A stretch of DNA of 13,543 bases from the IMG/VR virus record IMGVR_UViG_2698536485_000014; one strand, 5' to 3'. The notes under the pieces are model-generated. The model made no database searches. It was not told the DNA's origin and saw nothing but the letters and a program-made list of their open reading frames with translations. This document shows, one piece after another, positions 1 to 13,543 of the stretch (position 1 is the first letter of the stretch; each line of letters begins with the position of its first letter). Source of the DNA: a virus (lineage: Duplodnaviria > Heunggongvirae > Uroviricota > Caudoviricetes). Both the position numbers and the translations under genes were made by a program.

Positions 1-252
1 CACGAAAGGCACTCCCCCGAATCAGTTCAGGCTGCGGTCACATCAGCGGGGAAATACCTTTCGGGATAGCTACCCACACAGAAAACCCGCAAAAGAAAAC
101 TGTGTGGATAACTAGCCCAATAGGAGAATTAATCGACCACTCAACGATGATCAGGGTAGTGTTATTTATAAGGCGGCACCGCTACCTGGTCGCCTTTACT
201 TTGGAGGAAAATACGGCAAATCACTTTCACCATTGATTTACGGTATATGTAT

Positions 253-281
253 ATTATATCAGTATTCTCTCAAATTGTCAA
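253..281 (-). promoter_or_regulatory. Consensus sigma70-type promoter firing leftward
   Basis: Reverse complement of 253-281 reads TTGACA, a 17-nt spacer, then TATAAT: both hexamers perfect with optimal spacing. Downstream on the minus strand (1-245) there is no ORF in the window, so the target is an sRNA or a gene beyond the left edge. Confidence 0.4.
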
Positions 282-590
282 CACCCTTATTATATAAATT
301 CTAATAATTAGCGTGGTAACGGTATTTTCAGACCTCTATCAATCCCATCAATACGTCACCCCCACCCTTTAGATGCATACATCCGACCTACTTTGTAGGC
401 TTGGCGTACTGCCAAGGTCGCAGCTATGCGACTCATATCTATCACCACTTTATAAAGCTTGATAGATATCTTTTGATCAATATCAATGTTTTCCGGGGAT
501 TTACCCGGCTATAGTTCGAATCAAGGAAGGGGAGCATTGATAGCACCCCAACCGAACAAACAAATCAACTTCTCGCAAAAGGTGATAGTT

Positions 591-713
591 ATGGGTATCA
601 AGAACAGTGCCAGCGCATGGCAAAAGGCCAGGTTTCATCACCCACACATTATTAAGGCAATTGAGGTGGTTGGAGTGTTAGCCCTGATGTTAGCTCTGTG
701 TGTGGAGGTGTGA
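591..713 (+). CDS. Small hydrophobic peptide (40 aa), possible membrane peptide
   Basis: ATG at 591 lies in frame inside the 486..713 track ORF and is preceded by an AAGGTGA Shine-Dalgarno. The C-terminal half is hydrophobic (AIEVVGVLALMLALCVEV). A 15-nt box TCAACTTCTCGCAAA sits 11 nt upstream of the ATG, as at the 1133 gene. Short ORF, may be non-coding. Confidence 0.3.
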   Translation: MGIKNSASAWQKARFHHPHIIKAIEVVGVLALMLALCVEV

Positions 714-814
714 GATGGGCAAAGGAGGCAAAGCATTTTTAATAAGTCTGGCTATCCTGGATGTTCTACTAATCATGATTGAGCGGAGTTTATGAACAGC
801 ATTGAGAGGAGTTT

Positions 815-1075
815 ATGACGGGGGCTAAAGATATCAGGAGACTGAGGGAAGAGCTGATAGCTGAAATTAAAGCTAAGGCAAAGCAAATGGAGATAGCCGC
901 ACAAATGGATGTAGCGGAGCAGATGTACAAGATGGTTGAGGAGGGAACACCACGACAGGTTATCGCTAAAACCTTCGGTGTGGGGATCGCCACCGTGCAT
1001 AGAAGGCTGAAAGCCTATGCCGACTACCACAATATCGAGAGAAAGGAGGATGGGAGATTCAGGAAAGCTAAATGA
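815..1075 (+). CDS. Small DNA-binding protein with C-terminal helix-turn-helix (86 aa)
   Basis: AGGAG Shine-Dalgarno before ATG 815. Charged coiled-coil-like N-terminus followed by a motif (TPRQVIAKTFGVGIATVHRRLKAY) typical of resolvase/TerS/sigma-type HTH. An 8-codon uORF (792..818) overlaps the start codon via ATGA. Confidence 0.6.
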   Translation: MTGAKDIRRLREELIAEIKAKAKQMEIAAQMDVAEQMYKMVEEGTPRQVIAKTFGVGIATVHRRLKAYADYHNIERKEDGRFRKAK

Positions 1076-1132
1076 TGTAAACGGTCCAACAGGTTATTAA
1101 CTAAACTCAACTTCTCGCAAAGGGGTACCACT

Positions 1133-1720
1133 ATGAACATTAAAACTATCATTGCAGTCATCACTATTGCCTTTAGTGCCAACACCGCAGCTATTGATGT
1201 AGGGGCCGTAAAAGATGCATCTTGTGCTGATAAACTGGCGGCACTTAATGCGGGATTCGATGCACCCCAGGGCTATCAAATGGGGCTATCTCTTAAAAAT
1301 ATTATTCTCCCTATGGAATCTGGCGCTTATGTATACGGAGCGATAGGAAAACTGGAGAAGCCGGAAATTGACCTGCAGGGTGTGAGAGCGAAGATCACAA
1401 AAAGAAATGAAAGCCTTTGTGATGTAGCTGAAATAGCTTTCATATCAGACGATGAAAAATCTATTTTAGCCTTTTGCAAAGATAGCGATGATAATGATCG
1501 CTTCTTTAAGATCACCCACAACAGGCCAATCTCTTTCTACTCTAATGCCACTATGGGCGCGGGTATGCAGTGGCTGAAGAGAGCTAAAGTAACTGAGATC
1601 GACATTGAAAAAGAGGCCAATGCAGGCAGTTATGGATTCTGGAAAGGCTGGACTAAATACACGTTCCAACAATGCGGCATCGATAGTCAGGCCTACGACA
1701 ACGGATTTTGGTTTTTCTAA
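1133..1720 (+). CDS. Secreted/periplasmic protein of unknown function (195 aa), moron-like
   Basis: N-terminus MNIKTIIAVITIAFSANTAA has a classic Sec signal peptide shape (basic residue, hydrophobic core, small-residue cleavage region). Four cysteines in the mature part; aromatic C-terminus (FWFF). GGGG Shine-Dalgarno at 1122-1125; terminator 22 nt downstream. Confidence 0.7.
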   Translation: MNIKTIIAVITIAFSANTAAIDVGAVKDASCADKLAALNAGFDAPQGYQMGLSLKNIILPMESGAYVYGAIGKLEKPEIDLQGVRAKITKRNESLCDVAEIAFISDDEKSILAFCKDSDDNDRFFKITHNRPISFYSNATMGAGMQWLKRAKVTEIDIEKEANAGSYGFWKGWTKYTFQQCGIDSQAYDNGFWFF

Positions 1721-1741
1721 CCTGCTAAGTTAATCCCACCA

Positions 1742-1768
1742 GGGGGCCATCACGGCCCCTTTTTATTT
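1742..1768 (+). terminator. Rho-independent terminator after the 1133..1720 gene
   Basis: Stem GGGGCC (1743-1748), loop ATCAC, stem GGCCCC (1754-1759), followed by TTTTTATTT. Confidence 0.6.
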
Positions 1769-1842
1769 GCCTCTTTGAATTACCCCCTATTTACACTCCT
1801 TTCAGTCCTGATCATCACTCCCTACGGTCATGAGCAATTAAC

Positions 1843-1889
1843 CCCTATTTAAGGGGTATTTAATGGGTATTTAATGCCTATTTATTGAT
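1843..1889. repeat. Four tandem 11-bp AT-rich repeats
   Basis: TATTTAA/TATTTAAT/TATTTAAT/TATTTATT begin at 1846, 1857, 1868 and 1879, an exact 11-bp period. The first unit is embedded in the hairpin CCCCTATTTAAGGGG. Confidence 0.5.
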
Positions 1890-1965
1890 TTAATCCGTTT
1901 TATGCCACAACCGCCCGGTTGACAGAGTAAGAGAGAGGGTGTAACCCTTTTTCGTAACACCAATA

Positions 1966-1981
1966 AAATCAATAAGTTAGC
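1966..1981. repeat. 16-bp exact direct repeat, left copy (AAATCAATAAGTTAGC)
   Basis: Identical 16-mer at 1966-1981 and 9620-9635, with 17 of 18 identity when extended. Rough chance expectation for a 16-mer pair in 13.5 kb is about 0.02. Confidence 0.45.
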
Positions 1982-2356
1982 TTAATAAGCCTTTTCTCTA
2001 TTTTTGTCAAATTTAACATACCCTCAAAAACTGCAAAATCTGGCTGCAAGATTATCTGCAGCTGGATTTCTTACACCTCATTTTGTGGTATCACCCTGAC
2101 TAGTTTGTGCATAAAATGAACAGTTTTTAACATTTCCTCTTCACCTGGTAACCACACAAAAAGCTAAAAACGAGGCACAGATAATCTTAGAGGCCTGTTT
2201 TCTTGTTATCACTCTGGAAACGTCGTAGAAGTGATTTTGATGAAAGATGACCTACCCTATTACACCCCCATTTTTTGTTATCACAATTGCATCCTGTGCG
2301 GTATATGGCTGTGTGCTGAAAGCGGTCTTGGGTGTGGGTGTCAGAAATATCCATTA

Positions 2357-2372
2357 GCGGTATTAATACCCG
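2357..2372. promoter_or_regulatory. Isolated palindrome GGTATTAATACC, related to the CGGTA...TACCG family
   Basis: Perfect 12-bp palindrome at 2359-2370 inside GCGGTATTAATACCCG, with the same half-sites as the array at 3300-3490 but a 1-nt shorter centre. Confidence 0.3.
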
Positions 2373-3157
2373 TCAGATGTTCGTCTGAGGTGCCAGGCAG
2401 GCGCTCCCCCACCTCCCTTTTTTCTTCTAACAATTCTCAAATATCACACCACTGCCCACCACGTTGCTATTATGTTAATTCTTAAGCTTTGCTGTATGTT
2501 GTGCACATTATTTATTCAGGTGCATGTACGTAAATTCTGGGCCTCCTTATCATGATTTTTAAATCAGATTTTGTAGTTCGGTTTCTTAGTGTAGATAAGA
2601 TCTATTATGTTAAATGCAATTTTCCCAACCCTTCAAATCAATGACTTACATGTAAGCATGCACTAACACCCCACACAGCACATTAGACGTGTAGATGTCT
2701 ATATCCCACATTTTTGATTGTTTTGTAGTCATTCCCCTGATCATTTAACCAGTATAGTTTGCTCTCTGCAGACCACAAAATCGGAATTTACATCTGATTA
2801 ACATAATCTGTTAGCATGATCACCATTACCCACACAACAATAACCCCATGCAAGCCTCTTTAGGCAATTTATCGGCGTGTTGGTGTGAACAGTCTTTCAT
2901 GTTCTTTATGTATTCATGACTGCAAGGAATGTATTCATTGTCCTGTGTGAGGGAAGGCTGGACTGCTCCAGGGGCCATAGTTATGATGCCCGGTCAACAT
3001 AGCTGTTGATAAAATCAACGGGTGTTGGCCTGCATATTTCCCACACATGAGAGGAAATCAAAGCAAAGAGAGAGGAGAGAGGTTTGCTAGACGATCAGGA
3101 CTATACAGAGTCAAAATCAAGTCACATTAGAGTCAAATCAGATGCAATCAATCCCCC

Positions 3158-3218
3158 ACCTGTTGGGATTTCCCACATGTTCAACCATACACAGGAGCTA
3201 ACCTGTTGGGATTTCCTA
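3158..3218. repeat. Two 18-bp direct repeats (ACCTGTTGGGATTTCCCA / ...CCTA)
   Basis: 3158-3175 and 3201-3218 match at 17 of 18 positions, 43 bp apart. Confidence 0.5.
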
Positions 3219-3235
3219 CACCTCTTGCACATACC

Positions 3236-3490
3236 CCGGAAGATTTTTCCGGTGTCTCCAACCTGTGAAGAATTTTCACACCTGTAAATCCATACAGCAC
3301 GGTAAAAACTACCGCACAACCTGTCAAAATATTTTACTACTCCCTTTAGTCATACCCCTTTCAGTCATACTCAGGCACCACACCCCGGTAAATATTACCG
3401 TACTCAGGCAGATATAAAGGGGCTAACCACGGCAAATATTTCCCTACTACCTCGGTAAATATTTCCGGTGTACCCCGGTAAAAATTACCG
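3236..3490. promoter_or_regulatory. Phased array of 15-bp palindromic sites (iteron/operator-like)
   Basis: CGGTAAAAACTACCG (3300-3314), CGGTAAATATTACCG (3386-3400), degenerate CGGCAAATATTTCCC (3430-3444), CGGTAAATATTTCCGG (3453-3468), CGGTAAAAATTACCG (3476-3490). Related palindromes CCGGAAGATTTTTCCGG (3236-3252) and GTGAAGAATTTTCAC (3265-3279). Centre-to-centre spacings are 86, 44, 23.5 and 22.5 bp, roughly multiples of two helical turns. Confidence 0.55.
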
Positions 3491-3519
3491 CCTAATAGAT
3501 AAAGTAATAGACCACACAA

Positions 3520-4060
3520 TAGATCCCCCCCTAACCCCCAAGGGGAATGGGGAGGGATCAGAGAGTGGGGAAGGTTTTCTAAGGGAAAAGCTTAACCCAC
3601 AAATGAAAGCCTAAAGAGCATGAGCGACTCTTTAGGCAATCTGTGTGTGGGGGGGGTGACAATGTATTCCATACATGACACGTCACCCAATTGTGTGTGG
3701 GAGTGCCTACGGCACCTTAGCCCATGGCTAAGCCCTTCGGGTCTGTGTGGGTCCGGCGAATGCGTCAGCATGAGGCCCACAATGTGGACCGCTGCCGAAA
3801 GCTTGCCAGCGCCGGAAGGAGGCAGCAAAGAGTCTCCCGCGCTCATGTGTGGGCGTATACGTAAGATATACACTCATAAATCGAAAATAAGCCCCCTAAA
3901 TGGCCTTCTGGCTGCATTAACCTGTGTGAGTAGTGAATTGCATTACCTGATGCTTAAATCGCGTTAGAATCGATTTTAGAGCGCTTAAGGCAAAAAGTGC
4001 CCTCCCTTGTGGGCTTGCTTGTGTCTGCTGTGCAGGCTATGGCACCTATAGCACACCTAA
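3520..4060. other. GC-rich, hairpin-dense non-coding segment; candidate structured RNA or protein-binding array
   Basis: No credible ORF. Perfect 10-bp stem GCCTAAAGAG/CTCTTTAGGC (3609-3637); nested hairpin 3654-3688; GTGCC-TAC-GGCAC (3703-3715); CTTAGCC-CAT-GGCTAAG; a C(TTCG)G tetraloop; GAAA loops. Boxes TGTGTGGG at 3643, 3692, 3744 and 3846, with degenerate copies at 3923 and 4007. Confidence 0.3.
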
Positions 4061-4076
4061 ATGATAATAATTCTCA

Positions 4077-4105
4077 TTGACAATTGGTTGACAATATGAT
4101 AAGAT
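4077..4105 (+). promoter_or_regulatory. Possible sigma70 promoter for the small membrane ORF
   Basis: TTGACA (4077-4082), 17-nt spacer, TAAGAT (4100-4105). A second TTGACA at 4088-4093 lacks a good -10. Confidence 0.3.
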
Positions 4106-4140
4106 TATAAATAGGGGGAGAAACAGATCCGGAGGTCAAT

Positions 4141-4290
4141 GTGGAAATTACAGATGCAATAGCGATCATCAACCTGGCTGTACTGTGGTGCGGTGTTGCC
4201 TACATAGCCGGAGTAACTGCAATCGACAATCTTGAAGAAAAAATGATAGATAAATACAAAAAGATTGTTGACAATTTGACGAATGTCTGA
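4141..4290 (+). CDS. Small membrane protein (49 aa, GTG start), hypothetical
   Basis: GGAGG Shine-Dalgarno at 4131-4135, 5 nt before GTG 4141. The product VEITDAIAIINLAVLWCGVAYIAGVTAIDNLEEKMIDKYKKIVDNLTNV contains one predicted transmembrane helix. Not in the ORF track because it is under 60 aa. Confidence 0.3.
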   Translation: MEITDAIAIINLAVLWCGVAYIAGVTAIDNLEEKMIDKYKKIVDNLTNV

Positions 4291-4296
4291 TAAAAT
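4268..4296 (+). promoter_or_regulatory. sigma70-type promoter upstream of the plus-strand gene module
   Basis: TTGACA (4268-4273), 17-nt spacer, TAAAAT (4291-4296). Predicted start near 4303, about 120 nt before ATG 4423. Confidence 0.5.
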
Positions 4297-4422
4297 ATAA
4301 AGCATAGGGTAATTCTCATCATAGTGAATTTCCTTTAGTAGACTGGCGGGGGCTTGTCTTAAGTTCCCGTTTCTTTTTAACCATATATCGCACAGGTTAG
4401 TGAGCTGACAGGAGATTGAATC

Positions 4423-4638
4423 ATGGCTAAAACCGGACCGATAAGCCAGCTAGTAAACTGGACTACTGACGAAATCGTCGAGAACGTGCTTAAAGGTAAC
4501 TTTCGAAAAACTTCCGTTTATGCATTTATTCGTAAACACAAAGGAGAATATCCACACATTGAAGCGGCAATTTTAGAACTGAACCGTCTCCGCATCGAGC
4601 GTGAGCTGGCTAAATACACCAACAACATTAATAAATAA
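4423..4638 (+). CDS. Small basic protein (71 aa), possible regulator
   Basis: AGGAG Shine-Dalgarno 8 nt before ATG 4423. First gene of a compact co-directional cluster. No recognisable family by eye. Confidence 0.55.
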   Translation: MAKTGPISQLVNWTTDEIVENVLKGNFRKTSVYAFIRKHKGEYPHIEAAILELNRLRIERELAKYTNNINK

Positions 4639-4651
4639 TTATGGGGGAACT

Positions 4652-5518
4652 ATGGCAAACAACTATGGGGAAAATTTTACTCCCCTTTTTAAACGTTTCA
4701 TCAAATACATTTTTAAAAATCCGATTGCAAAAACTACAACCAATAAAGAAAGATTTCACTTAAATTTGTTGGAAATGGCAATTTACGGTGAAATGGCAAG
4801 TTTCCATTTAAACGGTAAAGAAATATTTATCTCTGAGCAAACCTTAGCAGATGATTATGATGCCACAGAAAAAACAGTAAGGTCGGCTATCAAAACATTA
4901 GAGGCTGCAGGACTAATATTTGTAAAACGGAGCAGAGGTAAGTCTAATCATTACAAACTACTTATTACTCCTGATCAGCTTGGCAAGATGTGTGATGAGC
5001 AGGGTATTAAAACCTCCGCAAGTGTGGGATACAGCAAAGAGGCCTCCGATAATCAACAGGAAGCCCCAAAACAAGCCACACAGCAGCCTGAAAAGCCCGA
5101 GGCAATGCAATCCCCTTCCCAACCTAAAAAAGAACGCAGAGAACGCCGTAGAGACGCTGGCAAACGTGAAATAGATGAGCACGGTTATCCGATTCTGACA
5201 AGCGATGAAATGAATGCTAGATATAAAGTAATTCAGGCCGCATTTAAAGATCAGAAGAGAATTAAATTATCTGAATTGCGTGATACATTTTACGGGCCGG
5301 AGGTGATGGATAAAATTAAAGGCACTATTCCCGATAAAATCTGGAAAGAGAAAGATTATTGGCACCTGACAGAGCAGGCCCTTAAGGTGGCTCAACATGT
5401 GGTTAAAAGAGGCAAAACAATTACCCTTGATTCTATTAGTCATGGCTATGATGCACCGAAAGAAAGATTGTGGAACAACTGCAAGCTTGTAAATGGTGAA
5501 TTGACAATTACAAAATAA
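4652..5518 (+). CDS. Winged-helix DNA-binding protein (289 aa), possible replication initiator or organiser
   Basis: GGGGGA Shine-Dalgarno before ATG 4652; the track ORF 4601..5518 begins at an upstream GTG with no Shine-Dalgarno. N-terminal wHTH-like segment (ISEQTLADDYDATEKTVRSAIKTLEAAGLIFVKRSRGK), a low-complexity Q/P/E/K-rich linker, then a C-terminal domain. Architecture resembles iteron-binding initiators such as lambda O; this is an inference. Confidence 0.6.
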   Translation: MANNYGENFTPLFKRFIKYIFKNPIAKTTTNKERFHLNLLEMAIYGEMASFHLNGKEIFISEQTLADDYDATEKTVRSAIKTLEAAGLIFVKRSRGKSNHYKLLITPDQLGKMCDEQGIKTSASVGYSKEASDNQQEAPKQATQQPEKPEAMQSPSQPKKERRERRRDAGKREIDEHGYPILTSDEMNARYKVIQAAFKDQKRIKLSELRDTFYGPEVMDKIKGTIPDKIWKEKDYWHLTEQALKVAQHVVKRGKTITLDSISHGYDAPKERLWNNCKLVNGELTITK

Positions 5519-5557
5519 ATATTCTTATTTTTTACAGTATTCTAAAGGAAATTTAAA

Positions 5558-5704
5558 ATGTATGGCGATTTTGATTATTACCTGGAAAAGGAAAAATATT
5601 TTGAAGATGAACTATCACAACATTTTTCATATTGGGAAGAATATTGTGGTTGGTTAGCTGAAGATCCAGCAGATGAAGAAAATGATTCTGACATCCCTTA
5701 TTAA
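5558..5704 (+). CDS. Small acidic protein (48 aa), hypothetical
   Basis: AAGGAA Shine-Dalgarno before ATG 5558. Product MYGDFDYYLEKEKYFEDELSQHFSYWEEYCGWLAEDPADEENDSDIPY is strongly acidic and aromatic. Below the ORF-track size cut-off. Confidence 0.35.
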   Translation: MYGDFDYYLEKEKYFEDELSQHFSYWEEYCGWLAEDPADEENDSDIPY

Positions 5705-5808
5705 TTAATATCCCCTGTTATCCCCAAATAAACTAAATAAACTAATTACATATAGAACTAGAACTAGATTGATTTCTCTTTAATGTTAAATTGACTGGAG
5801 AATTAATC

Positions 5809-6294
5809 ATGTTCAAATCTGATCTTTCTGATTCCCAATTTGAAAAACTGGTAGCACTGCAGAAATATCTCCCCAGTGATGATCAACCAACACGACAGGC
5901 TAAGCACTTATTAGTCGAGGGCTTTACCCCTGAATTCGTGGCGGAATACACAGGCGTTAAACTTGAGAAAGTCCAAAAACTATATAATGAGTCCTGGAAT
6001 CCACGGTGTAGAGTTCCCCTCAGTGTCTACAACGAAATAGATAGAGATAGAAATGTCTTCGAAGATCGCCGCCGCAAATCTCTTTTAATGTGGAATTGCG
6101 GGATGAATATTGAAGAGATAGCAAAAGAATTAAAAGTAACCTGCTTTCATATCTGGGGCTTGTTGAGTGAAATCCTGCCACGTAAGGAGCTTAATCAACG
6201 TTTGCCTAAGCCCGGTAGTCGTGCTTATCGCGAATTTATATTCATCTACCGCCGCCATAGCAATAAAGTCCGGAAAGCAATGCAGCGCAAATAG
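5809..6294 (+). CDS. Hypothetical protein (161 aa) with two HTH-like segments
   Basis: GGAG Shine-Dalgarno before ATG 5809; the track start 5791 is a TTG. Segments FTPEFVAEYTGVKLEKVQKLY and GMNIEEIAKELKVTCFHIWGLL look like helix-turn-helix motifs. Basic C-terminus. Confidence 0.55.
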   Translation: MFKSDLSDSQFEKLVALQKYLPSDDQPTRQAKHLLVEGFTPEFVAEYTGVKLEKVQKLYNESWNPRCRVPLSVYNEIDRDRNVFEDRRRKSLLMWNCGMNIEEIAKELKVTCFHIWGLLSEILPRKELNQRLPKPGSRAYREFIFIYRRHSNKVRKAMQRK

Positions 6295-6336
6295 CTTATA
6301 GCCTTCACATATGCCGCAAGTTATTGATTCTGCCGT

Positions 6337-6352
6337 CCGGTAAATATGCCGG
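6337..6352. promoter_or_regulatory. Extra copy of the palindromic operator (CCGGTAAATATGCCGG)
   Basis: Same CGGTAAATAT core as the array at 3300-3490, placed 31 nt upstream of ATG 6383 in the gap between two genes. Confidence 0.4.
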
Positions 6353-6382
6353 ATGGCTCATATAAATTTTAAGGAATTCCAA

Positions 6383-6826
6383 ATGTCTCAAATCGCTAAA
6401 TTACTATCCCAGGTTATCAAAGCTTTCGACGCTGAAGATTCAAAAGTTCGCCAGGATCTTTTAGATGGCAAGTTTACCAACACCCTGGCATTTACCCGTG
6501 ACAAAGAGCACTTCTTAAAACACAGACACCACGCTTTTGCTGAATGCAAGTCCGCTAATGGTGATGTTTTCTATGTCGATTTGGTGGTTATGGCATGTAG
6601 GCTGTGGATGATTCAGGACCTTATGCGCCAACACGGTGATGATCCTCTTATCAGCATGTGGAACAGCGCCCAGGATGGCTTTGTGATTGCTGCCTTATCC
6701 AAATCAATGATTGAGGCAGAAGGGGCAAGCCTTCAGAACATGGCAGATCTCTTTGAAATAAGCGTAGGAATGATGCAGACCATGCTCCAAGCTGTCAAAC
6801 CTCTCAAACTGGTTAATCTTGATTAA
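6383..6826 (+). CDS. Hypothetical protein (147 aa), predicted mainly helical
   Basis: AAGGA Shine-Dalgarno 7 nt before ATG 6383; the track start 6353 lacks a Shine-Dalgarno and overlaps the operator. Composition is rich in A, L, M, Q, K and E, unlike a beta-rich tail tube protein. Confidence 0.55.
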   Translation: MSQIAKLLSQVIKAFDAEDSKVRQDLLDGKFTNTLAFTRDKEHFLKHRHHAFAECKSANGDVFYVDLVVMACRLWMIQDLMRQHGDDPLISMWNSAQDGFVIAALSKSMIEAEGASLQNMADLFEISVGMMQTMLQAVKPLKLVNLD

Positions 6827-6885
6827 GCTATTGATAAATAAGCACTCCCCATTTTTGGGGGGTGCATCAATGAGAGGATATGCCT

Positions 6886-7269
6886 ATGAATATTGAAGAA
6901 ATGATAGTTGAATTCGAAGAGGGTGATTTCCTGGAAGATGGGGAGTTTAGTTACTCCCATTTTAAACAGGCGTTATTTAGCAGCGATGATAAACCACACG
7001 TTAGTGATCTTAACGACGATGATTTATGTCGTTGGGTGTGCACCCGCTTATATGAGGATGGAAAATATACAGGCCAAAACTTTCCAAATCTCTATTTCAA
7101 AGCACAAACATTTGAGGAAGGGCAAAGAGTGAAAAACCTGGTCGATCAAATGCTGTCAGCCGGATATTTGCATAAAGAATTATTAAATCCTAAAGCTGAA
7201 AGCAAGCGCCATTATATTTTTGTGTGGACTATTGGCGATAAGTGTCCACTAAGACGCAAAGGCAAATGA
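6886..7269 (+). CDS. Hypothetical acidic protein (127 aa)
   Basis: GAGAGGA Shine-Dalgarno 7 nt before ATG 6886. Acidic N-terminus. Second gene upstream of the tape-measure gene. Confidence 0.5.
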   Translation: MNIEEMIVEFEEGDFLEDGEFSYSHFKQALFSSDDKPHVSDLNDDDLCRWVCTRLYEDGKYTGQNFPNLYFKAQTFEEGQRVKNLVDQMLSAGYLHKELLNPKAESKRHYIFVWTIGDKCPLRRKGK

Positions 7270-7270
7270 T

Positions 7271-7507
7271 ATGAACACCTACGAAAAGATTTATCAAAAA
7301 CTGGTTAAGGACTCCGAAGAGACGCCCGAAGGGGTGACAATAGGTCACCTACCAGAGGCAGCGAAAGAGGGGTCCACCATTATTAAAAGTGGCACCCACA
7401 CAGAAGGCCTCTCAATCGAAGAGCTGGCGGAGAAATATAATATTGATAAAGAGGCCCTGAAAAGGGCTATTTCATTATCAAAATCTTTAAGACAGGGTGA
7501 GGTATAA
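7271..7507 (+). CDS. Hypothetical protein (78 aa)
   Basis: ATG 7271 lies 1 nt after the upstream TGA. The gene ends 1 nt before the tape-measure start, so the three genes are tightly packed. Confidence 0.5.
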   Translation: MNTYEKIYQKLVKDSEETPEGVTIGHLPEAAKEGSTIIKSGTHTEGLSIEELAEKYNIDKEALKRAISLSKSLRQGEV

Positions 7508-7508
7508 A

Positions 7509-9608: not shown

Positions 9609-9619
9609 TATTGTGATCT

Positions 9620-9635
9620 AAATCAATAAGTTAGC
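9620..9635. repeat. 16-bp exact direct repeat, right copy (AAATCAATAAGTTAGC)
   Basis: Identical to 1966-1981; lies 12 nt after the tape-measure stop codon. Confidence 0.45.
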
Positions 9636-9655
9636 CTGACCGGATAAACTCCAGG

Positions 9656-9690
9656 CAAGAAAAAAGCCCCTAAGTGTTAACAAAGGGGCT
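9656..9690 (-). terminator. Rho-independent terminator on the minus strand
   Basis: Stem AGCCCCT (9665-9671) pairs with AGGGGCT (9684-9690) around a 12-nt loop. On the minus strand the stem is followed by TTTTTCTTG. On the plus strand no T-run follows. Confidence 0.45.
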
Positions 9691-9719
9691 CTTCTCCGGT
9701 ATCCTTTTGATGCGGGGCG

Positions 9720-9767
9720 AACCTGCTAACAAAAATCAACCTCTCGCGAGACTAATGTTAGCAGGTT
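9720..9767. repeat. 12-bp perfect inverted repeat with 24-nt loop
   Basis: AACCTGCTAACA (9720-9731) pairs with TGTTAGCAGGTT (9756-9767). The loop contains the palindrome TCTCGCGAGA and a degenerate copy of the leader box (TCAACCTCTCGCGAG). Confidence 0.5.
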
Positions 9768-10108
9768 GCCGGAAGGTAAGTCAACTCCGGCCTATAAACC
9801 TTAAAGCGACTATAAAATCGCCCCGCCAATTGTGATGATCCGACCTTTGAGGCGGGTCCGGTGCCCAGGGGGTGCAGTGATGCACAAACCAGGCAACGAT
9901 AAACAGGCTAACAGTGATAGCGGCGCTCAATCAGCGCACTAAATCCTAACCAGTCCGGGAAAGAGGCTGGCTCTATCGACCGCTCATGCACGGGACAATG
10001 CATACCTGATAAAGGATTCTCACAAGGGACCAATCGCGAGAAAAGAAGTGGAAAGGGGCTGATTTGTGGTGTATCACTACGGCCTCAAAAGAACACTATT
10101 ACCTTTTT

Positions 10109-10567
10109 TCAGCCTCTCCCAACATTTGACCAGTATTTGATTGCACCGATCAAATCATCATAGTGGCGCATTGCATCATTGAAGCCTTTATAGCTTGCCC
10201 ATTGTGGGGAGACTTTGTTATTGCTGAATTGCCCACTAATCAGGATAGTCTCCAAAATGTCGGCGTATCGCTTGCCAATTCGCTTTCTGACGGCCTCAGA
10301 GCTTCCACCCTTTACGATTGCATTAATCAGGGCTTTTGTGTGTCTCAGGCTCTCATAGAGCATTGCAGCGTGGGCAGATTCCATAAAGGAGCGCTTAGGC
10401 AGATCACCCCACCCCTCAGAGTGGATAGCTGCCAGTGTGGCGTAATTCAGGCCGCTATAGTGCTTTCCGTCATCCCAGCCAACCGCTACACCTTCCATCT
10501 GTGAGAGCTCTTTATGCAGCTTATCCATCATGCGCTTGTCTATGGTGCAACGGACTTTCGGACTCAT
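10109..10567 (-). CDS. Hypothetical protein (152 aa), possibly virion morphogenesis-associated
   Basis: GGAG Shine-Dalgarno 8 nt before the minus-strand ATG at 10567. The start overlaps the upstream gene stop as ATGA (10564-10567). Function assigned by position only. Confidence 0.55.
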   Translation of the reverse strand: MSPKVRCTIDKRMMDKLHKELSQMEGVAVGWDDGKHYSGLNYATLAAIHSEGWGDLPKRSFMESAHAAMLYESLRHTKALINAIVKGGSSEAVRKRIGKRYADILETILISGQFSNNKVSPQWASYKGFNDAMRHYDDLIGAIKYWSNVGRG

Positions 10568-11367
10568 TTGTTGATCTCCGTGATGTCATCGAGCAACATG
10601 TTGGCCTTATCAATCATCGTTTCGTGGAACTCATTCGACACAACAGACTTATCACCTGCGGCAATCTTTCCCGCTGCCTCTCCCTGTGCATATTCCCCGC
10701 GATGCTTAGCCCTGGTTGATTTCGTAGCAGCATTGCCAGCGTTACTACCCTCTTTAGCACTGTTAACAGCACCCTTTTGCTGTGTTTTATTCACCTTCTT
10801 ACTGTTAGTGAAAACTCCGGCATTTTCGACCATCTTCACCTTGAAGGTGCGGAATTCTTCAAAAGTGCAATCAATAGTGATGCAGTCACCGGAGGAAGAG
10901 CTACGCTTAACTTCACATTTCGTCATGATGAAGTTCTCAAGAAGTCCGGCATCTTCACTCACCAGGCTAACCAGCTGGCGCTTGTCTCTCATTTCCATAA
11001 GAGCACGCACAGCGGCGGCGGGGCGCATGGATTCAAGGGGATTATCTGGATCAGTGTTCCGGTCGATGTAGTTCTCTTTCCGGATAATGTGAGGGGAAGA
11101 GGTAATAATGCCCGTAAAGCTGACAGATTTATCTTTAATGACGGCATGGTCTGACATGGTGGTGCCATCCTCGACCGCATAGCTCGATTTCTCAACAGGG
11201 AACGAATAGCTGACATCAGAGATAGAGTCAAAGAAGATAGCCACATTATCGGTATAGTTGAAGCCATCCATCATATTTTTGTTTTGTGAATATCCCCCAC
11301 ACATAACAGTGAATGCAGGAGATCTCGACTCAGCTTGTTTTGCAGCTGTCAGAGCATCACTAGCCAT
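10564..11367 (-). CDS. Hypothetical protein (about 268 aa), Ser/Thr/Val-rich with low-complexity C-terminus
   Basis: Preferred start is ATG at 11367, with GGAGG 10 nt upstream. The alternatives are ATG 11376 (too close to the Shine-Dalgarno) and the track TTG at 11421. The composition suggests a beta-rich structural protein; this is an inference. Confidence 0.55.
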   Translation of the reverse strand: MASDALTAAKQAESRSPAFTVMCGGYSQNKNMMDGFNYTDNVAIFFDSISDVSYSFPVEKSSYAVEDGTTMSDHAVIKDKSVSFTGIITSSPHIIRKENYIDRNTDPDNPLESMRPAAAVRALMEMRDKRQLVSLVSEDAGLLENFIMTKCEVKRSSSSGDCITIDCTFEEFRTFKVKMVENAGVFTNSKKVNKTQQKGAVNSAKEGSNAGNAATKSTRAKHRGEYAQGEAAGKIAAGDKSVVSNEFHETMIDKANMLLDDITEINK

Positions 11368-11561
11368 AGTAAACATGCCTCCAAATTGGTCCACTTCATG
11401 GATTTGGCTAAACTCGTGCAAATAGCCCTCGTCTTGAGGGTGTTAAAGCCAAACCTGCAAAAGATGCAGGCAAAATAGAACTTATCGTTGCCCTGCTTAA
11501 AATCTGCAGAAAATACAGGGCAGTTATTCGTTAGAATCGCTTATAGCTCTTCCCGAGAGCG

Positions 11562-11813
11562 TTATTTTGCAAAACGATTATGGGCATTCAGGGCTTTTTT
11601 GCGGTCCTGGGCTTGTTTGCGTGCAATAAAATGTTCGAAAGTCTCGGCCCAGGTGCATTTATTATATTCACGGTATTTATGCATAGCCTGGCGGCTAACG
11701 TCATAGCAGGCGGCAAATGTGGAGATACGCAGGAATTCCGGCAGATCCTCGTCATCGATATGGATAATATCAAAAGGCACGTCGTCACGGTCGCCGTATA
11801 AAACAATTTTCAT
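11562..11813 (-). CDS. Small acidic protein (83 aa) with possible HTH
   Basis: GAGGTG Shine-Dalgarno 8 nt before ATG 11813; the track start 11822 is a GTG. Contains the segment CYDVSRQAMHKYREY. Sits just downstream of the capsid terminator. Confidence 0.45.
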   Translation of the reverse strand: MKIVLYGDRDDVPFDIIHIDDEDLPEFLRISTFAACYDVSRQAMHKYREYNKCTWAETFEHFIARKQAQDRKKALNAHNRFAK

Positions 11814-11845
11814 AAAAGACACCTCAAAAAACTTAAGACGGGGAT

Positions 11846-11910
11846 AATAAAAAAGGGAAGAGGGAAAGACCTATCCCCGATCTCTCACCTCTTCCCTTTG
11901 CTTTTATTTG
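11846..11910 (-). terminator. Terminator/attenuator after the major capsid gene, possibly bidirectional
   Basis: Stem AAAGGGAAGAGG (11852-11863) pairs with CCTCTTCCCTTT (11888-11899) around a 24-nt loop. The minus-strand transcript is followed by TTTATTAT; the plus strand is followed by GCTTTTATTT. Confidence 0.5.
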
Positions 11911-11927
11911 GCCTTCGAAGAAGGACC

Positions 11928-12971
11928 TTATTTAGCCTTGGCTTTTGCCAGAGCGGCGGCGGAGTTACTAACACTCACTTTAATCACAACTTCAGGCATC
12001 ATGTTCATGAAAGCATAAGAGGATTCAATGAAGATTTCTCGTTTACCTCTGGACTCTTCCATATACATGAAAGCTTCACGTGCAGCGCCGTTTGCAAGCT
12101 TCAGGTTGCGAGCGCAAGGGCCGAAAAATTGAGTATAAACGCCCACCATATCGCCTAACGCATGCGGCTGGAACTGTGGGACCAGATAAGCAGTATTCTC
12201 TGGCAGACTATCCATTTGCACCACACGCAGAGCTAAGCCCGGAATGCGGAAGGTCGGGAAGCCCGGCAGAATATCCTCAGGGAACATCAGACCTTTGTCG
12301 GTAATATTCTGATTGCCGAACAACAGCACTTTTCTCAACAGTTCATCAGTCTGAATTGCAGCAAAGAGTTCAGCACGGCAGAACAGGGTGAAACCACGCA
12401 GAGCGCGAACAACACCACGCTGTTTAACCTTGCTCAGTGCAACCAGGTCCTGCAGCTGTTTAAGGATATCTTTAGCTAAATCCACTTCGGAAGTAGTTTG
12501 TTGTGCGCCCAGCAGTTCGCACACATTCAGTTCTTTACCCTTGGTGAGGATAATTTTGTTCTCAAAGAGAGCAAGCTGGCGTGCTTCTTCGTGGGTCTGG
12601 CGTAAGCCTTCGCCAAGCTGAATGACACGACGAGCGGTTACAGACTCTAAATTCTCTTCGGAATCTTTGCCCGGAACACGGATACCCTGCCAGTCAGAAG
12701 GATAAATAGCACTTGATGCGGCAGTGAATGCCATATCACCCGTGCCCGTTTCACGCTCATCTGCGGTAATGGTCGCCATCTGTTCACCGTAGCGCGGATA
12801 CTGACCGAAAGCGGTTTGTTTCACCTGGCGAACTTTGTCATATTCAAATTTAAAGGTATTGCACAGAGCAGTAGTGTTGAAGATATCCATTGCTGAAATA
12901 ATCTGGTTATCCAGCGGGATGTCTTTAATCAGACCACACAGATCGCGAACTTCGAATTCTTTCTTAGCCAT
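11928..12971 (-). CDS. Major capsid protein, lambda gpE-like family (about 347 aa)
   Basis: AAGGAGG Shine-Dalgarno 6 nt before ATG 12971; the track start 12977 is a TTG. Size matches gpE-type capsid proteins. N-terminal FKFEYD and C-terminal PEVVIKVSV segments resemble lambda E as I recall it. It follows a decoration-size gene by 11 nt and is followed by a strong terminator. Confidence 0.6.
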   Translation of the reverse strand: MAKKEFEVRDLCGLIKDIPLDNQIISAMDIFNTTALCNTFKFEYDKVRQVKQTAFGQYPRYGEQMATITADERETGTGDMAFTAASSAIYPSDWQGIRVPGKDSEENLESVTARRVIQLGEGLRQTHEEARQLALFENKIILTKGKELNVCELLGAQQTTSEVDLAKDILKQLQDLVALSKVKQRGVVRALRGFTLFCRAELFAAIQTDELLRKVLLFGNQNITDKGLMFPEDILPGFPTFRIPGLALRVVQMDSLPENTAYLVPQFQPHALGDMVGVYTQFFGPCARNLKLANGAAREAFMYMEESRGKREIFIESSYAFMNMMPEVVIKVSVSNSAAALAKAKAK

Positions 12972-12982
12972 CTTCAACCTCC

Positions 12983-13318
12983 TTATTGTGCAACACGCAA
13001 ATCGCCATTGCTGGCAGCGATAACAGCGGCTAAGCCGTCTTTATCCACGTAGGCCGGATTGATATAACAGCCTTTGTTGGCAACAACGATAAAAGCGTCA
13101 CCAACCTCAGCACGTTCTACAACCAGCAGCGGAGTTTTACCGGTGTGTGTTTCTTTAACGAAGGTCTCAACCTCGCCAGCCTCAGTCACCACAACAACAG
13201 TGCCAGCCGGAATCTCAGCTTTAACTTTGTTTTTAATTTCAACGTCGCGAATACTAAATTGCTCATCTGCGGCGTATGAAATGATGTGTCCGCGTGTGCG
13301 GATAGTCATATCTTTCAT
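12983..13318 (-). CDS. Head decoration-like protein (111 aa)
   Basis: AGGTGA Shine-Dalgarno before ATG 13318. Small Val/Ala/Glu-rich product directly upstream of the capsid gene, in the gpD-gpE arrangement. Its stop codon overlaps the capsid Shine-Dalgarno. Call is by position and size only. Confidence 0.45.
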   Translation of the reverse strand: MKDMTIRTRGHIISYAADEQFSIRDVEIKNKVKAEIPAGTVVVVTEAGEVETFVKETHTGKTPLLVVERAEVGDAFIVVANKGCYINPAYVDKDGLAAVIAASNGDLRVAQ

Positions 13319-13356
13319 TTGATCACCTGCGATTTAAATTAACTCCCCTCAAAGAG

Positions 13357-13473
13357 TTCCGGCATAACCTCTAAAACCACGACAGGATCGGGCCGAAAAG
13401 TTATGCCGGAAATCTAAAGGGAAATTGATACAAGGAGAGGGAGATAGCCCCGCACCGTCCAAGCGGGGGCTAT
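13357..13473. repeat. Two strong hairpins in the leader upstream of the decoration gene
   Basis: 12-bp perfect inverted repeat TTCCGGCATAAC (13357-13368) / GTTATGCCGGAA (13400-13411) with a 31-nt loop. Second hairpin ATAGCCCCGC (13444-13453) / GCGGGGGCTAT (13463-13473) with one bulged base. Confidence 0.4.
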
Positions 13474-13543
13474 TCCACATGGGGAAACCGACAACAGTCG
13501 GATGATAGTTCACAGTATTACGGTTACTAGAGAGCACTATCAC

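What the first reader, a model, noticed from the sequence alone, without database searches (positions are those of the whole stretch)
253..281. Perfect consensus promoter firing leftward into ORF-free DNA
TTGACA-17-TATAAT on the minus strand is as strong as sigma70 promoters get, yet nothing coding lies within 245 bp downstream. That stretch holds a consensus DnaA box (TGTGGATAA, 103-111) and inverted repeats (74-81 / 100-107). It could drive a small RNA, a gene beyond the window edge, or origin-activating transcription.
Basis: seen in the sequence. Interest (0 to 1): 0.4.

Follow-up and report, generated by a model that had tools for sequence, protein, structure and literature searches.

The report
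Capsid-operon promoter with structured RNA leader
The perfect promoter is real and conserved, but it does not fire into empty DNA: the window is one full turn of a small circular phage-like plasmid, so transcription runs across the window junction, through a 470-base structured non-coding leader, into the capsid genes at the window's far end.

Summary
TTGACA-17-TATAAT with a TG extended -10 lies on the minus strand at 281..253 and is the only 12/12 site in the window (chance about 0.003-0.009).

The window is a circular permutation of a roughly 13.5 kb E. coli plasmid-like, phage-derived element. In every relative, position 13543 abuts position 1. The "ORF-free" DNA is therefore a ~470-nt leader. 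It ends at a 111-aa gene (13318..12983), followed by major capsid, Dit-like and neck genes.

No other promoter-like site precedes this operon. Both hexamers are invariant in 16 close relatives while the spacer varies. Two divergent lineages (capsid protein 82% identical, and about 50% to that lineage) keep a near-consensus promoter at the same place.

The leader has no conserved ORF, is the most conserved stretch of the element, and is strongly structured. That hairpin is kept by compensatory changes in a lineage that lacks the box. A hairpin about 315-350 nt downstream is a canonical intrinsic terminator in both divergent lineages but lacks the U-tract here.

Verdict: this is an operon promoter plus a new, unclassified leader RNA, probably governing read-through. 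Origin activation is not supported. Regulation is inferred, not shown.

The parts
282..305 (-). AT-rich stretch just upstream of the -35, resembling an UP element (sense strand ...TATTAGAATTTATATAATAAGGGTG)
   Evidence: Read from the sequence. TATTAGAA plus an A/T-rich run is kept in all relatives and in the divergent L010. Function is inferred.
276..281 (-). -35 hexamer TTGACA
   Evidence: It is invariant in all 16 close relatives and in L010. L019 has TTGACT.
259..275 (-). 17-nt spacer ATTTGAGAGAATACTGA, with the extended -10 TG at 261-260
   Evidence: The spacer varies at about 4 positions among close relatives while the hexamers and TG stay fixed.
253..258 (-). -10 hexamer TATAAT
   Evidence: It is invariant in close relatives. 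L010 has TAAAAT and L019 has TATAAT, and GATATAATATAC is shared with L019.
245..248 (-). Predicted transcription start, around A246
   Evidence: Inferred from the usual 7 nt distance after the -10. Not measured.
211..246 (-). 5'-terminal hairpin of the leader, inside the variable, indel-rich stretch 225-247
   Evidence: Four different sequence variants of this stretch all pair with the conserved 3' arm GAUUUGCCGUAU (dG -6.7 to -11.6 kcal/mol).
170..196 (-). Hairpin H1 (AAGGCGACC...GGUGCCGCCUU)
   Evidence: It lies in the block best conserved with L010 (80% over 65 nt). The L010 version folds equivalently.
154..171 (-). Conserved, mostly unpaired block UUAUAAAUAACACUACCC
   Evidence: It is nearly identical in L010. 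It contains TATAAATA. No function is assigned.
57..124 (-). Hairpin H2: a 19-bp stem with apical loop UUUUCUUUUGCGGGUUUU.
   Evidence: (repeat I1). Between the window and L010, 17 pairs form in both: 8 unchanged, 6 changed on one side in a G-U-compatible way, and 3 compensatory. Stability is -30.4 kcal/mol sense against -19.3 antisense.
103..111 (-). Consensus DnaA-box 9-mer TTATCCACA (minus strand)
   Evidence: It is not conserved in L010: 4 mismatches in the same structural columns. No DnaA-like box occurs in the L010 or L019 leaders.
4..62 (-). Hairpin H3 (GAAAGGUAUUUCCCC...GGGGGAGUGCCUUUC)
   Evidence: (repeat I2 partner). The covariance model aligns an equivalent hairpin in L010.
13488..13543 (-). 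Hairpins H4 (13542..13503) and H5 (13501..13488, CCGACUGUUGUCGG), immediately across the window junction
   Evidence: H5 shows a compensatory G-C to A-U change (9 against 6 sequences) within the close family.
13440..13476 (-). GC-rich hairpin H6 (GGAAUAGCCCCCGC...GCGGGGCUAUCUCC), about +314 to +350. It resembles a terminator but has no U-tract.
   Evidence: dG about -21 kcal/mol. The corresponding hairpins in L010 (1402-1436 plus U9) and L019 (about 3440-3480 plus U7) are canonical intrinsic terminators oriented with the promoter.
13345..13421 (-). Long hairpin H7 just upstream of the ribosome-binding site
   Evidence: Several one-sided G-U-compatible changes and one compensatory change occur among close relatives. 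L002 and L014 carry a 71-nt insertion in its loop.
13316..13328 (-). Shine-Dalgarno AGGUGA (13328..13323) and ATG (13318..13316) of the first operon gene
   Evidence: In the window family this region can pair with leader positions 153..115 (dG -29.7 kcal/mol against -16.9 +/- 3.8 for shuffles). That pairing is not significant in L010.
12983..13318 (-). First gene of the operon, 111 aa. It sits where the decoration-protein gene sits in rV5-like phages.
   Evidence: annotated hypothetical protein. No family hit.
11928..12977 (-). Major capsid protein gene, 349 aa
   Evidence: PHROG 29 major head protein, E 2.9e-20. Annotated as major capsid protein in relatives. The homologue P0019 carries Pfam Phage_cap_E.
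10109..11421 (-). Distal genes of the same leftward operon: a Dit-like tail tube initiator (11421..10564) and a neck protein (10567..10109)
   Evidence: Pfam Dit_like, E 4.8e-25. They are 48% and 45% identical to rV5 proteins. No other minus-strand promoter-like site lies between 9837 and 13543.

Best explanation
The site at 281..253 is the working sigma-70 promoter of the element's leftward structural operon. It has consensus hexamers, a TG extended -10 and an AT-rich upstream flank.

The window is one complete turn of a circular plasmid-like, phage-derived element of about 13.5 kb. Transcription should start near 246, run leftward past position 1 and continue from 13543 downward. It reaches the first gene (111 aa, ATG 13318) after about 470 nt. 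It then reads the major capsid, Dit-like and neck genes.

The first ~350 nt form a conserved chain of hairpins with no conserved ORF (5' hairpin, then H1 to H6). The chain ends in H6. H6 is an intrinsic terminator in the two divergent lineages and a hairpin without a U-tract here.

The most likely logic is a strong, largely constitutive promoter whose output into the capsid genes is set downstream. Control would come from termination or read-through at H6, and in this lineage possibly from occlusion of the ribosome-binding site.

**Shown:** the promoter sequence and its conservation, circularity, gene order, conservation of the leader, its predicted structure with covariation, and terminators in the relatives.

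**Inferred:** the start site, actual transcription, and any regulation.
For: **Promoter.**
- 12/12 match with TG; chance 0.003-0.009.
- Both hexamers are invariant while the spacer varies in 16 close relatives.
- The promoter is kept at the same place in L010 (TTGACA-17-TAAAAT with TG) and in L019 (TTGACT-17-TATAAT), although the flanks have diverged to 73-80% identity or beyond alignment.

**Circularity.**
- Window positions 13543 and 1 are contiguous in L001, L002, L013-L016, L011 and L020.
- Relatives are circular plasmids of 13.2-13.7 kb.
- L020 has a 30-nt terminal overlap.

**Operon.**
- The 111-aa, capsid, Dit-like and neck genes all lie on the minus strand.
- No other minus-strand promoter-like site lies in 9837-13543.
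- Synteny is the same in L010 and L019.

**Leader.**
- Bins 1-200 are the most conserved fully covered part of the element, at 99.3-99.8%.
- No ORF is conserved across lineages, and L016 has a 5-nt deletion.
- Fold z-scores are -5.7 (L001) and -6.8 (L010) on the sense strand, against -2.8 and -4.7 antisense.
- Minimum free energy is -177 against -139.5 kcal/mol for the window.
- H2 shows 3 compensatory and 6 G-U-compatible changes against L010. H5 shows a compensatory change within the family.
- A covariance model of H1-H3 finds L010 at E 5e-18, at the right place and strand.
- Terminators oriented with the promoter lie at about +300 to +375 in L010 and L019.
Against: - No expression data exist. 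The start site and transcription are predictions.
- In the third lineage (L019) the antisense strand folds better than the sense strand (-128 kcal/mol, z -4.5, against -111, z -3.4). Strand asymmetry therefore supports an RNA-level structure in only 2 of 3 lineages.
- The covariance model hits L019 only weakly (E 0.09).
- H6 in the window lineage lacks a U-tract, so termination control is not established for this element.
- The pairing that would occlude the ribosome-binding site is not significant in L010.
- Conservation near 100%, including loops, exceeds what structure alone requires. It could reflect a DNA-level site.
- A consensus promoter running unrepressed into capsid genes on a resident plasmid would be costly. 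No repressor or antiterminator has been identified.
Confidence: 0.7

Rival explanations
1. The main product is a stand-alone non-coding RNA of about 340 nt that ends at H6. It acts in trans, for example on plasmid maintenance or against a helper phage. Capsid-gene expression would be only a side effect of read-through.
For: - L010 and L019 have canonical intrinsic terminators at +300 to +375, before any gene.
- The RNA core is the most conserved part of the element and is strongly structured.
- A 5' hairpin is retained in every sequence variant.
- In L001-type relatives the 5' ~38 nt would be antisense to an rV5-type phage gene (15/15 plus 17/19 matches, E 0.01-0.1).
Against: - The window lineage has no U-tract after H6.
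- The capsid operon has no other promoter candidate, so read-through is needed in any case.
- The window's own 5' variant has no phage match.
- No Rfam family matches.
- This rival is not exclusive of the best explanation.
Confidence: 0.2
2. The conserved stretch downstream of the promoter is mainly a DNA-level site, such as a packaging (cos/pac) site recognised by a helper phage terminase, or another protein-binding array of palindromes. The promoter merely reads through it.
For: - Identity is nearly 100% across 1-224, including predicted loops.
- Two long overlapping inverted repeats are present.
- In L019 the antisense strand folds at least as well as the sense strand.
- No terminase or portal was detected among the ORFs scanned, so the element would need a helper's packaging machinery.
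Against: - No nucleotide similarity to any of 50,697 phage records.
- G-U-compatible one-sided substitutions and a sense-strand energy advantage of 27-38 kcal/mol in two lineages point to RNA.
- Sequence in L010 and L019 diverges strongly while hairpin positions are kept.
Confidence: 0.15
3. Origin-activating transcription: the promoter transcribes towards a DnaA box that belongs to the plasmid origin.
For: - There is a perfect TTATCCACA at 103-111, conserved in the close family.
- DnaA-like 9-mers (up to 1 mismatch) are enriched in the element overall: 13 against 3.7 +/- 2.0 expected, and 0 of 200 shuffles reach 13.
Against: - The box is one arm of hairpin H2. Lineage L010 replaces it (4 mismatches) and keeps the hairpin through compensatory changes.
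- No DnaA-like box occurs in the L010 or L019 leaders.
- No second box or tandem-repeat array lies within about 500 bp.
- Iteron-like repeats lie at 3150-3520. Four DnaA-like boxes lie at 2106-3012. The O-like Rep gene lies at 4601-5518.
- The promoter fires away from all of these.
Confidence: 0.04
4. A chance match to the consensus with no promoter function.
For: The overall count of promoter-like sites in the window equals the shuffle expectation.
Against: - A perfect site is expected 0.003-0.009 times.
- The hexamers are invariant amid spacer and flank variation, and two divergent lineages keep the site.
- It sits at the head of an operon that has no other promoter candidate.
Confidence: 0.02

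Closest known systems
Phage lambda late promoter PR' with 6S RNA and terminator tR' (Q antitermination)
   Same: A strong, constitutive sigma-70 promoter is followed by a non-coding transcript and a terminator-type hairpin. Structural genes follow, and they can be expressed only by read-through. The arrangement is clearest in relatives L010 and L019.
   Different: - The leader is about 340 nt and multi-hairpin, against 194 nt in lambda.
- No Q-like protein was found among the ORFs scanned.
- No clear -10-like pause element is conserved just after the start.
- In the window lineage the terminator has lost its U-tract.
- The comparison rests on textbook knowledge of lambda, not on a test here.
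Promoters in the structural-gene region of rV5-like phages (Vequintavirinae)
   Same: The format is the same: TTGACAAT, a spacer, then TGnTAAAATA. Examples from the rV5 structural region are TTGACAATGCACCATAATCATGGTAAAATA and TTGACAATCAGTATTTGCTATGATAAAAT. The rV5 genome paper reports the motif TggTAaAAtA upstream of late genes, and 11 promoters with extended -10 regions (PMC3606486). The element's Dit-like and neck proteins are 45-48% identical to rV5 proteins.
   Different: - There is no nucleotide homology beyond the promoter motifs.
- The rV5 promoters are predictions too.
- The element is a 13.5 kb plasmid, not a 137 kb virulent phage.
Leader-embedded regulatory RNAs of P4 (CI), P1/P7 (C4) and N15 (CB)
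   Same: In each case a strong constitutive promoter on a satellite or plasmid-prophage has a long untranslated leader that controls downstream genes at the RNA level.
   Different: - No match to the Rfam C4 family or to any other family.
- No repeated target sequences of the seqA/seqC type were found.
- Processing is untested.
Sister promoter inside the same element (4268-4296, ahead of the 71-aa and Rep genes)
   Same: It shares TGTTGACAATTTGA...CTGATAnAATATA, about 81% identity over 47 nt. It too is followed by a terminator-like hairpin (4345-4371) before its first gene.
   Different: It has a short leader of about 120 nt and points the opposite way, into the replication and tail genes.

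Membership tests
Sigma-70 promoter, extended -10 class | -35 TTGACA and -10 TATAAT separated by 17 +/- 1 nt | tested here: met
   12/12 match with a 17-nt spacer. Expected by chance 0.003-0.009 times.
Sigma-70 promoter, extended -10 class | TGn immediately upstream of the -10 | tested here: met
   The sequence is TGATATAAT. TG is kept in the close relatives and in L010, but not in L019.
Sigma-70 promoter, extended -10 class | Selective conservation of the hexamers relative to the spacer and flanks | tested here: met
   The hexamers are invariant in 16 relatives while the spacer and the start-proximal region vary. The site is kept in L010 and L019.
Sigma-70 promoter, extended -10 class | A mapped transcription start | not testable with these tools
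   No expression data are available.
Intrinsic (Rho-independent) terminator, for hairpin H6 | A stable GC-rich stem-loop | tested here: met
   dG is about -21 kcal/mol in all variants.
Intrinsic (Rho-independent) terminator, for hairpin H6 | A U-tract directly 3' of the stem | tested here: not met
   The window tail is CUCCCUCUCCUU and is not reported by the scan. The feature is met in L010 (U9) and L019 (U7).
DnaA-dependent origin or DnaA-regulated site | The consensus 9-mer TTATCCACA | tested here: met
   One perfect copy at 103-111.
DnaA-dependent origin or DnaA-regulated site | A cluster of boxes or iterons nearby | tested here: not met
   The nearest other DnaA-like boxes are at 13041-13049 (inside a gene) and at 2106. 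Iteron-like repeats lie at 3150-3520.
DnaA-dependent origin or DnaA-regulated site | Conservation of the box in diverged relatives | tested here: not met
   There are 4 mismatches in the same structural columns of L010. No DnaA-like box occurs in the L010 or L019 leaders.
Lambda-type Q-antiterminated late unit | Strong promoter, then short non-coding RNA, then terminator, then structural genes | tested here: inconclusive
   The arrangement is present in L010 and L019. In the window the hairpin lacks a U-tract.
Lambda-type Q-antiterminated late unit | A Q-family antiterminator gene | tested here: not met
   No such PHROG or Pfam hit among the ORFs scanned. A helper-encoded factor cannot be excluded.
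Lambda-type Q-antiterminated late unit | A -10-like pause element in the initially transcribed region | tested here: inconclusive
   TATAGT occurs at about +1 to +6 in L001-type variants, but the window has only TATACC. The region is variable.
Any curated RNA family (Rfam 15, including C4/CI-type, put and leader families) | A covariance-model match at or near the gathering score | tested here: not met
   There are no hits at gathering score in the window. On L001, where the junction is contiguous, only chance-level hits appear at E up to 10.

The most novel reading that the evidence does not exclude
The ~340-nt RNA made from this promoter may be a new class of regulatory RNA. It would belong to an undescribed family of plasmid-borne satellites of rV5-like virulent phages. 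It would hold the satellite's capsid genes off until a helper phage infects. Alternatively, through its variable 5' segment it would act as an antisense RNA against helper genes.
Probability: 0.15. Interest if true: 0.7.

Novelty: new member of a known kind. Interest (0 to 1): 0.4.

Why it matters
The promoter itself is ordinary: a consensus promoter at the head of an operon. Three things give it some value.

1. It shows how a window-edge artefact turned an operon promoter into an apparent orphan.
2. The promoter's first 350 nt form a conserved, structured RNA with no conserved ORF and no Rfam family. It has terminator homologues in relatives and is a concrete, cheap target for RNA-seq, Northern blots and reporter fusions.
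3. The host element looks like an uncharacterised plasmid-type phage satellite. It carries capsid, tail-tube-initiator, neck and tape-measure genes related to rV5-like virulent phages.

If the leader controls those genes in response to a helper phage, it would be the regulatory switch of a new satellite-helper system in E. coli.

Tried and rejected
- **Known RNA genes.** Rfam at gathering score on the window, and at E up to 10 across the junction in L001, gave nothing meaningful. No tRNA or tmRNA was found.
- **Nucleotide similarity to phages.** Megablast of 1-1200 and of the whole window found nothing. Sensitive blastn of the leader gave only a borderline 37-nt hit to rV5-like phages, and only for the L001-type variant.
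- **More relatives.** IMG/VR scans by DNA pattern and by capsid protein found nothing. The GTDB genome scan found nothing. The metagenome scan returned only close family members.
- **T4-type late promoter.** TATAAATA at 163-170 was considered. There are only 2 copies in the window against 0.7 expected. The rV5 paper reports no gp55, gp33 or gp45 homologues (PMC3606486). L010 has AATAAATA there. I dropped the idea.
- **Guide-like variable 5' segment.** The window's own variant has no phage match.
- **A small protein in the leader.** The ORFs differ between lineages, and a 5-nt deletion in L016 breaks the only family-wide one.
- **Long-range occlusion of the ribosome-binding site as a conserved feature.** The pairing is significant in the window family but not in L010.
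- **Strand asymmetry as general proof of an RNA structure.** It fails in L019.
- **Covariance model of H1-H3.** It gives a convincing hit in L010 but only a marginal one in L019.
- **Literature.** Searches for the plasmids, their protein accessions, or an rV5-type satellite found no description.

Full report
**1.

- The consensus scan reports TTGACA (281..276), a 17-nt spacer and TATAAT (258..253) on the minus strand. It scores 12 of 12, with TG before the -10.
- It is the only perfect site in the window.
- The total count of promoter-like sites (22) matches the shuffle expectation (23.6), so such sites in general carry no weight.
- A perfect site is a different matter. A first-order Markov model of the window expects 0.003 with a 17-nt spacer, 0.009 with 16-18 nt, and 0.0002 with TG as well. 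Only 21 of 3000 simulated sequences had one.
- No minus-strand ORF of 50 aa or more lies in 1-252.

**2. The "ORF-free DNA to the left" is an artefact of where the window was cut**

- The first 1200 bases match five E. coli plasmids at 91-96.5% identity. Four are 13.2-13.7 kb and one is 39.6 kb.
- A 746-nt query spanning the window junction matches plasmids in 7 of 5426 complete E. coli genomes and never a chromosome.
- In every relative that spans the region, window position 13543 is directly followed by position 1. The window carries an extra CAC at the joint.
- Contig L020 has a 30-nt terminal overlap, as expected for a circular molecule.
- The 39.6 kb record holds three copies of the unit.
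- The window, at 13,543 bp, is therefore one full turn of a circular element. The circular topology of the window's own molecule is inferred from these relatives.

**3. What lies downstream**

Reading leftward across the joint, the first gene is a 111-aa ORF (13318..12983). After it come:

| Gene | Coordinates | Evidence |
|---|---|---|
| Major capsid protein | 12977..11928 | PHROG 29, E 2.9e-20; annotated as such in relatives |
| Possible 86-aa ORF | 11822..11562 | no family hit |
| Dit-like tail tube initiator | 11421..10564 | Pfam Dit_like, E 4.8e-25 |
| Neck protein | 10567..10109 | PHROG 222, tail completion or Neck1; 45% identity to rV5 Ne1 neck protein |

- The distance from the predicted start (about 246) to the ATG is about 470 nt.
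- The scan lists no other minus-strand promoter-like site between 9837 and 13543.
- The site at 281..253 is thus the only candidate promoter for this operon.

**4. Conservation of the promoter**

- In 16 close relatives both hexamers and the TG are invariant, while the spacer varies at about four positions.
- The 20-odd bases just downstream of the -10 are replaced or carry indels.
- Lineage L010 (capsid protein 82% identical; contig) keeps TTGACA-17-TAAAAT with TG at the same place. Its flanks are only 73-80% identical or cannot be aligned.
- Lineage L019 (capsid protein 50% identical to that of L010, same gene order) has TTGACT-17-TATAAT there and shares GATATAATATAC.

**5. The leader**

- *No conserved ORF.* ORFs differ between lineages, and one family member has a 5-nt deletion in the only family-wide ORF.
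- *Most conserved stretch.* Window bins 1-100 and 101-200 are the most conserved fully covered bins of the element, at 99.8% and 99.3%, against 90-96% for the element overall.
- *Strongly structured on the sense strand.*

| Sequence | Sense strand (kcal/mol) | Antisense strand (kcal/mol) |
|---|---|---|
| L001 | -175.8, z -5.7 | -149.6, z -2.8 |
| L010 | -165.3, z -6.8 | -138.3, z -4.7 |
| Window | -177.3 | -139.5 |

- *Fold.* It is a chain: a 5' hairpin, H1, an unpaired conserved block, then H2 to H7.

**6. The DnaA box and inverted repeat belong to hairpin H2 (57-124)**

- The inverted repeat is the top of the H2 stem, and the DnaA box is part of its 5' arm.
- A structural alignment with L010 gives 17 pairs formed in both sequences. 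Eight are unchanged, 6 are changed on one side in a G-U-compatible way, and 3 are compensatory.
- The DnaA box columns differ at 4 of 9 positions.
- H2 and H3 are about 10 kcal/mol more stable on the sense strand in the window. In L010 the advantage is about 10 kcal/mol for H2 and 5 for H3.
- Neither the L010 nor the L019 leader contains a DnaA-like box with up to 1 mismatch.
- Within the close family, H5 carries a G-C to A-U compensatory change in 9 against 6 sequences.
- All four sequence variants of the start-proximal region keep a 5'-terminal hairpin.
- A covariance model of H1-H3 built from the close family finds L010 at E 5e-18, on the right strand and at the right place. It finds L019 only at E 0.09.

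**7. Hairpin H6**

| Lineage | Position from predicted start | 3' tail |
|---|---|---|
| Window (13476..13440) | about +314 to +350 | CUCCCUCUCCUU, no U-tract |
| L010 | about +333 to +376 | U9, canonical terminator with 15-bp stem |
| L019 | about +300 to +345 | U7, canonical terminator |

- The L019 hairpin (AAUAGCUCCCCCGC...GCGGGGGUAU) is homologous in sequence to the window's H6.
- Both canonical terminators are oriented with the promoter.
- The conserved unit is thus a promoter, a structured RNA of about 340 nt, a terminator-type hairpin, and then the capsid genes.
- In the window lineage the U-tract is degenerate.
- In the window family only, the leader segment 153..115 can also pair with the region holding the ribosome-binding site. 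The energy is -29.7 kcal/mol against -16.9 +/- 3.8 for shuffles. This is not significant in L010.

**8. Caveats**

- There are no expression data.
- In L019 the antisense strand folds better than the sense strand. The G-U argument for an RNA-level structure therefore holds in two of three lineages only.
- Near-perfect conservation of loops as well as stems suggests an additional constraint, possibly at the DNA level.
- No nucleotide similarity to any phage record was found that could identify such a site.

**9. The origin reading is not supported**

- The DnaA box is not conserved outside the close family (section 6).
- Iteron-like repeats lie at 3150-3520.
- Four of the DnaA-like boxes lie at 2106-3012.
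- The lambda-O-like Rep gene is at 4601-5518.
- The promoter points away from all of these.

**10. Context**

- The Dit-like protein is 48% identical and the neck protein 45% identical to proteins of rV5-like virulent myoviruses. The tape measure protein is 26% identical.
- The order 111-aa gene then capsid gene mirrors decoration gene then capsid gene in rV5.
- Among the ORFs scanned I found no terminase, portal, protease, sheath or baseplate genes.
- rV5's own structural-region promoters have the same format, TTGACAAT...TGgTAAAATA (motif TggTAaAAtA in PMC3606486).
- A sister promoter at 4268-4296 is about 81% identical over 47 nt.
- I found no paper describing this plasmid family.
- The reading as a plasmid-borne satellite of rV5-like phages is an inference.

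**11. Verdict**

- The promoter is genuine and almost certainly heads the capsid operon of a circular element.
- Its immediate product is a conserved, structured leader RNA with no conserved ORF and no known family. This RNA probably sets how much transcription or translation reaches the capsid genes.
- The promoter is ordinary in kind. The leader is new but unproven.

Noticed in passing
window 1-13543 (whole): The window is a complete circular plasmid-like element of about 13.5 kb. It is rare: 7 of 5426 complete E. coli genomes carry it, always as a plasmid. It encodes capsid, Dit-like tube initiator, neck, putative tail-tube and chaperone proteins, a 703-aa tape measure protein and an O-like Rep. 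Among the ORFs scanned I found no terminase, portal, protease, sheath or baseplate genes. The Dit-like, neck and tape measure proteins are 48%, 45% and 26% identical to those of rV5-like virulent phages. It looks like an undescribed plasmid-type phage satellite, and no paper on it was found.
   Followed up: partly
window 4077-4105 and 4268-4296 (+), hairpin 4345-4371: Two more near-consensus promoters with TG share TTGACAATT with the promoter at 253-281. The one at 4268 is about 81% identical to it over 47 nt. It is followed by a terminator-like hairpin with a T-run before the 71-aa and Rep genes. Exact TTGACAATT occurs 4 times in the window; my own estimate of the chance expectation is about 0.15.
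   Followed up: partly
window 1720-3600, especially 3150-3520: This ~1.9 kb stretch has few ORFs and none annotated in relatives. It carries several families of iteron-like repeats built on short palindromes (for example CCGGTAAATATTTCCGG and ACCTGTTGGGATTTCCCACA). It is a candidate origin or partition site.
   Followed up: partly
window-wide; 2106, 2590, 2826, 3004 and others: DnaA-box-like 9-mers (up to 1 mismatch) are enriched: 13 against 3.7 +/- 2.0 expected, and 0 of 200 shuffles reach 13. Four of them cluster just upstream of the iteron-like repeats.
   Followed up: no
L001 6220-6257 (equivalent to the variable stretch at window ~211-247): In L001-type relatives, the start-proximal ~38 nt of the leader would be antisense to the coding strand of the rV5-type gene annotated 'inhibitor of prohead protease' (15/15 plus 17/19 matches, E 0.01-0.1 against 2.3 Gb). 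The window's own variant has no such match. This could be chance, a remnant, or an anti-helper antisense segment.
   Followed up: partly
window 361-431 and 437-486: A 71-bp segment is present in only 4 of 10 aligned relatives. Next to it lie operator-like palindromes (ATCTATCA...TGATAGAT at 437-467 and TTGATCAATATCAA at 473-486), between the divergent operons.
   Followed up: no
window 590-713 and 716-796 (+): Two small ORFs with good ribosome-binding sites encode hydrophobic peptides (41 aa ending ...VVGVLALMLALCVEV, and 26 aa). They lie ahead of the 86-aa HTH_7 gene. NCBI and PLSDB records do not annotate them, but gene calls on contig L019 include 42- and 31-aa ORFs in the same position.
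   Followed up: no
L011 13400-21041 (NTNY01000053.1): One family member sits on a 30 kb contig. There the element is joined to a DDE transposase and to aminoglycoside phosphotransferase and TetR-type resistance genes. The element can therefore carry antibiotic-resistance cargo.
   Followed up: no
window 3620-3967 (+): The 115-aa ORF has a 49-aa stretch that is 45% identical (E 2e-5) to the translation of an unannotated stretch of rV5 (L018 36444-36587).
   Followed up: no
window 13541-13543 / 1-3: The window has CAC on both sides of its junction where all relatives have a single CAC. This may be a 3-nt circularisation artefact or a real insertion.
   Followed up: no
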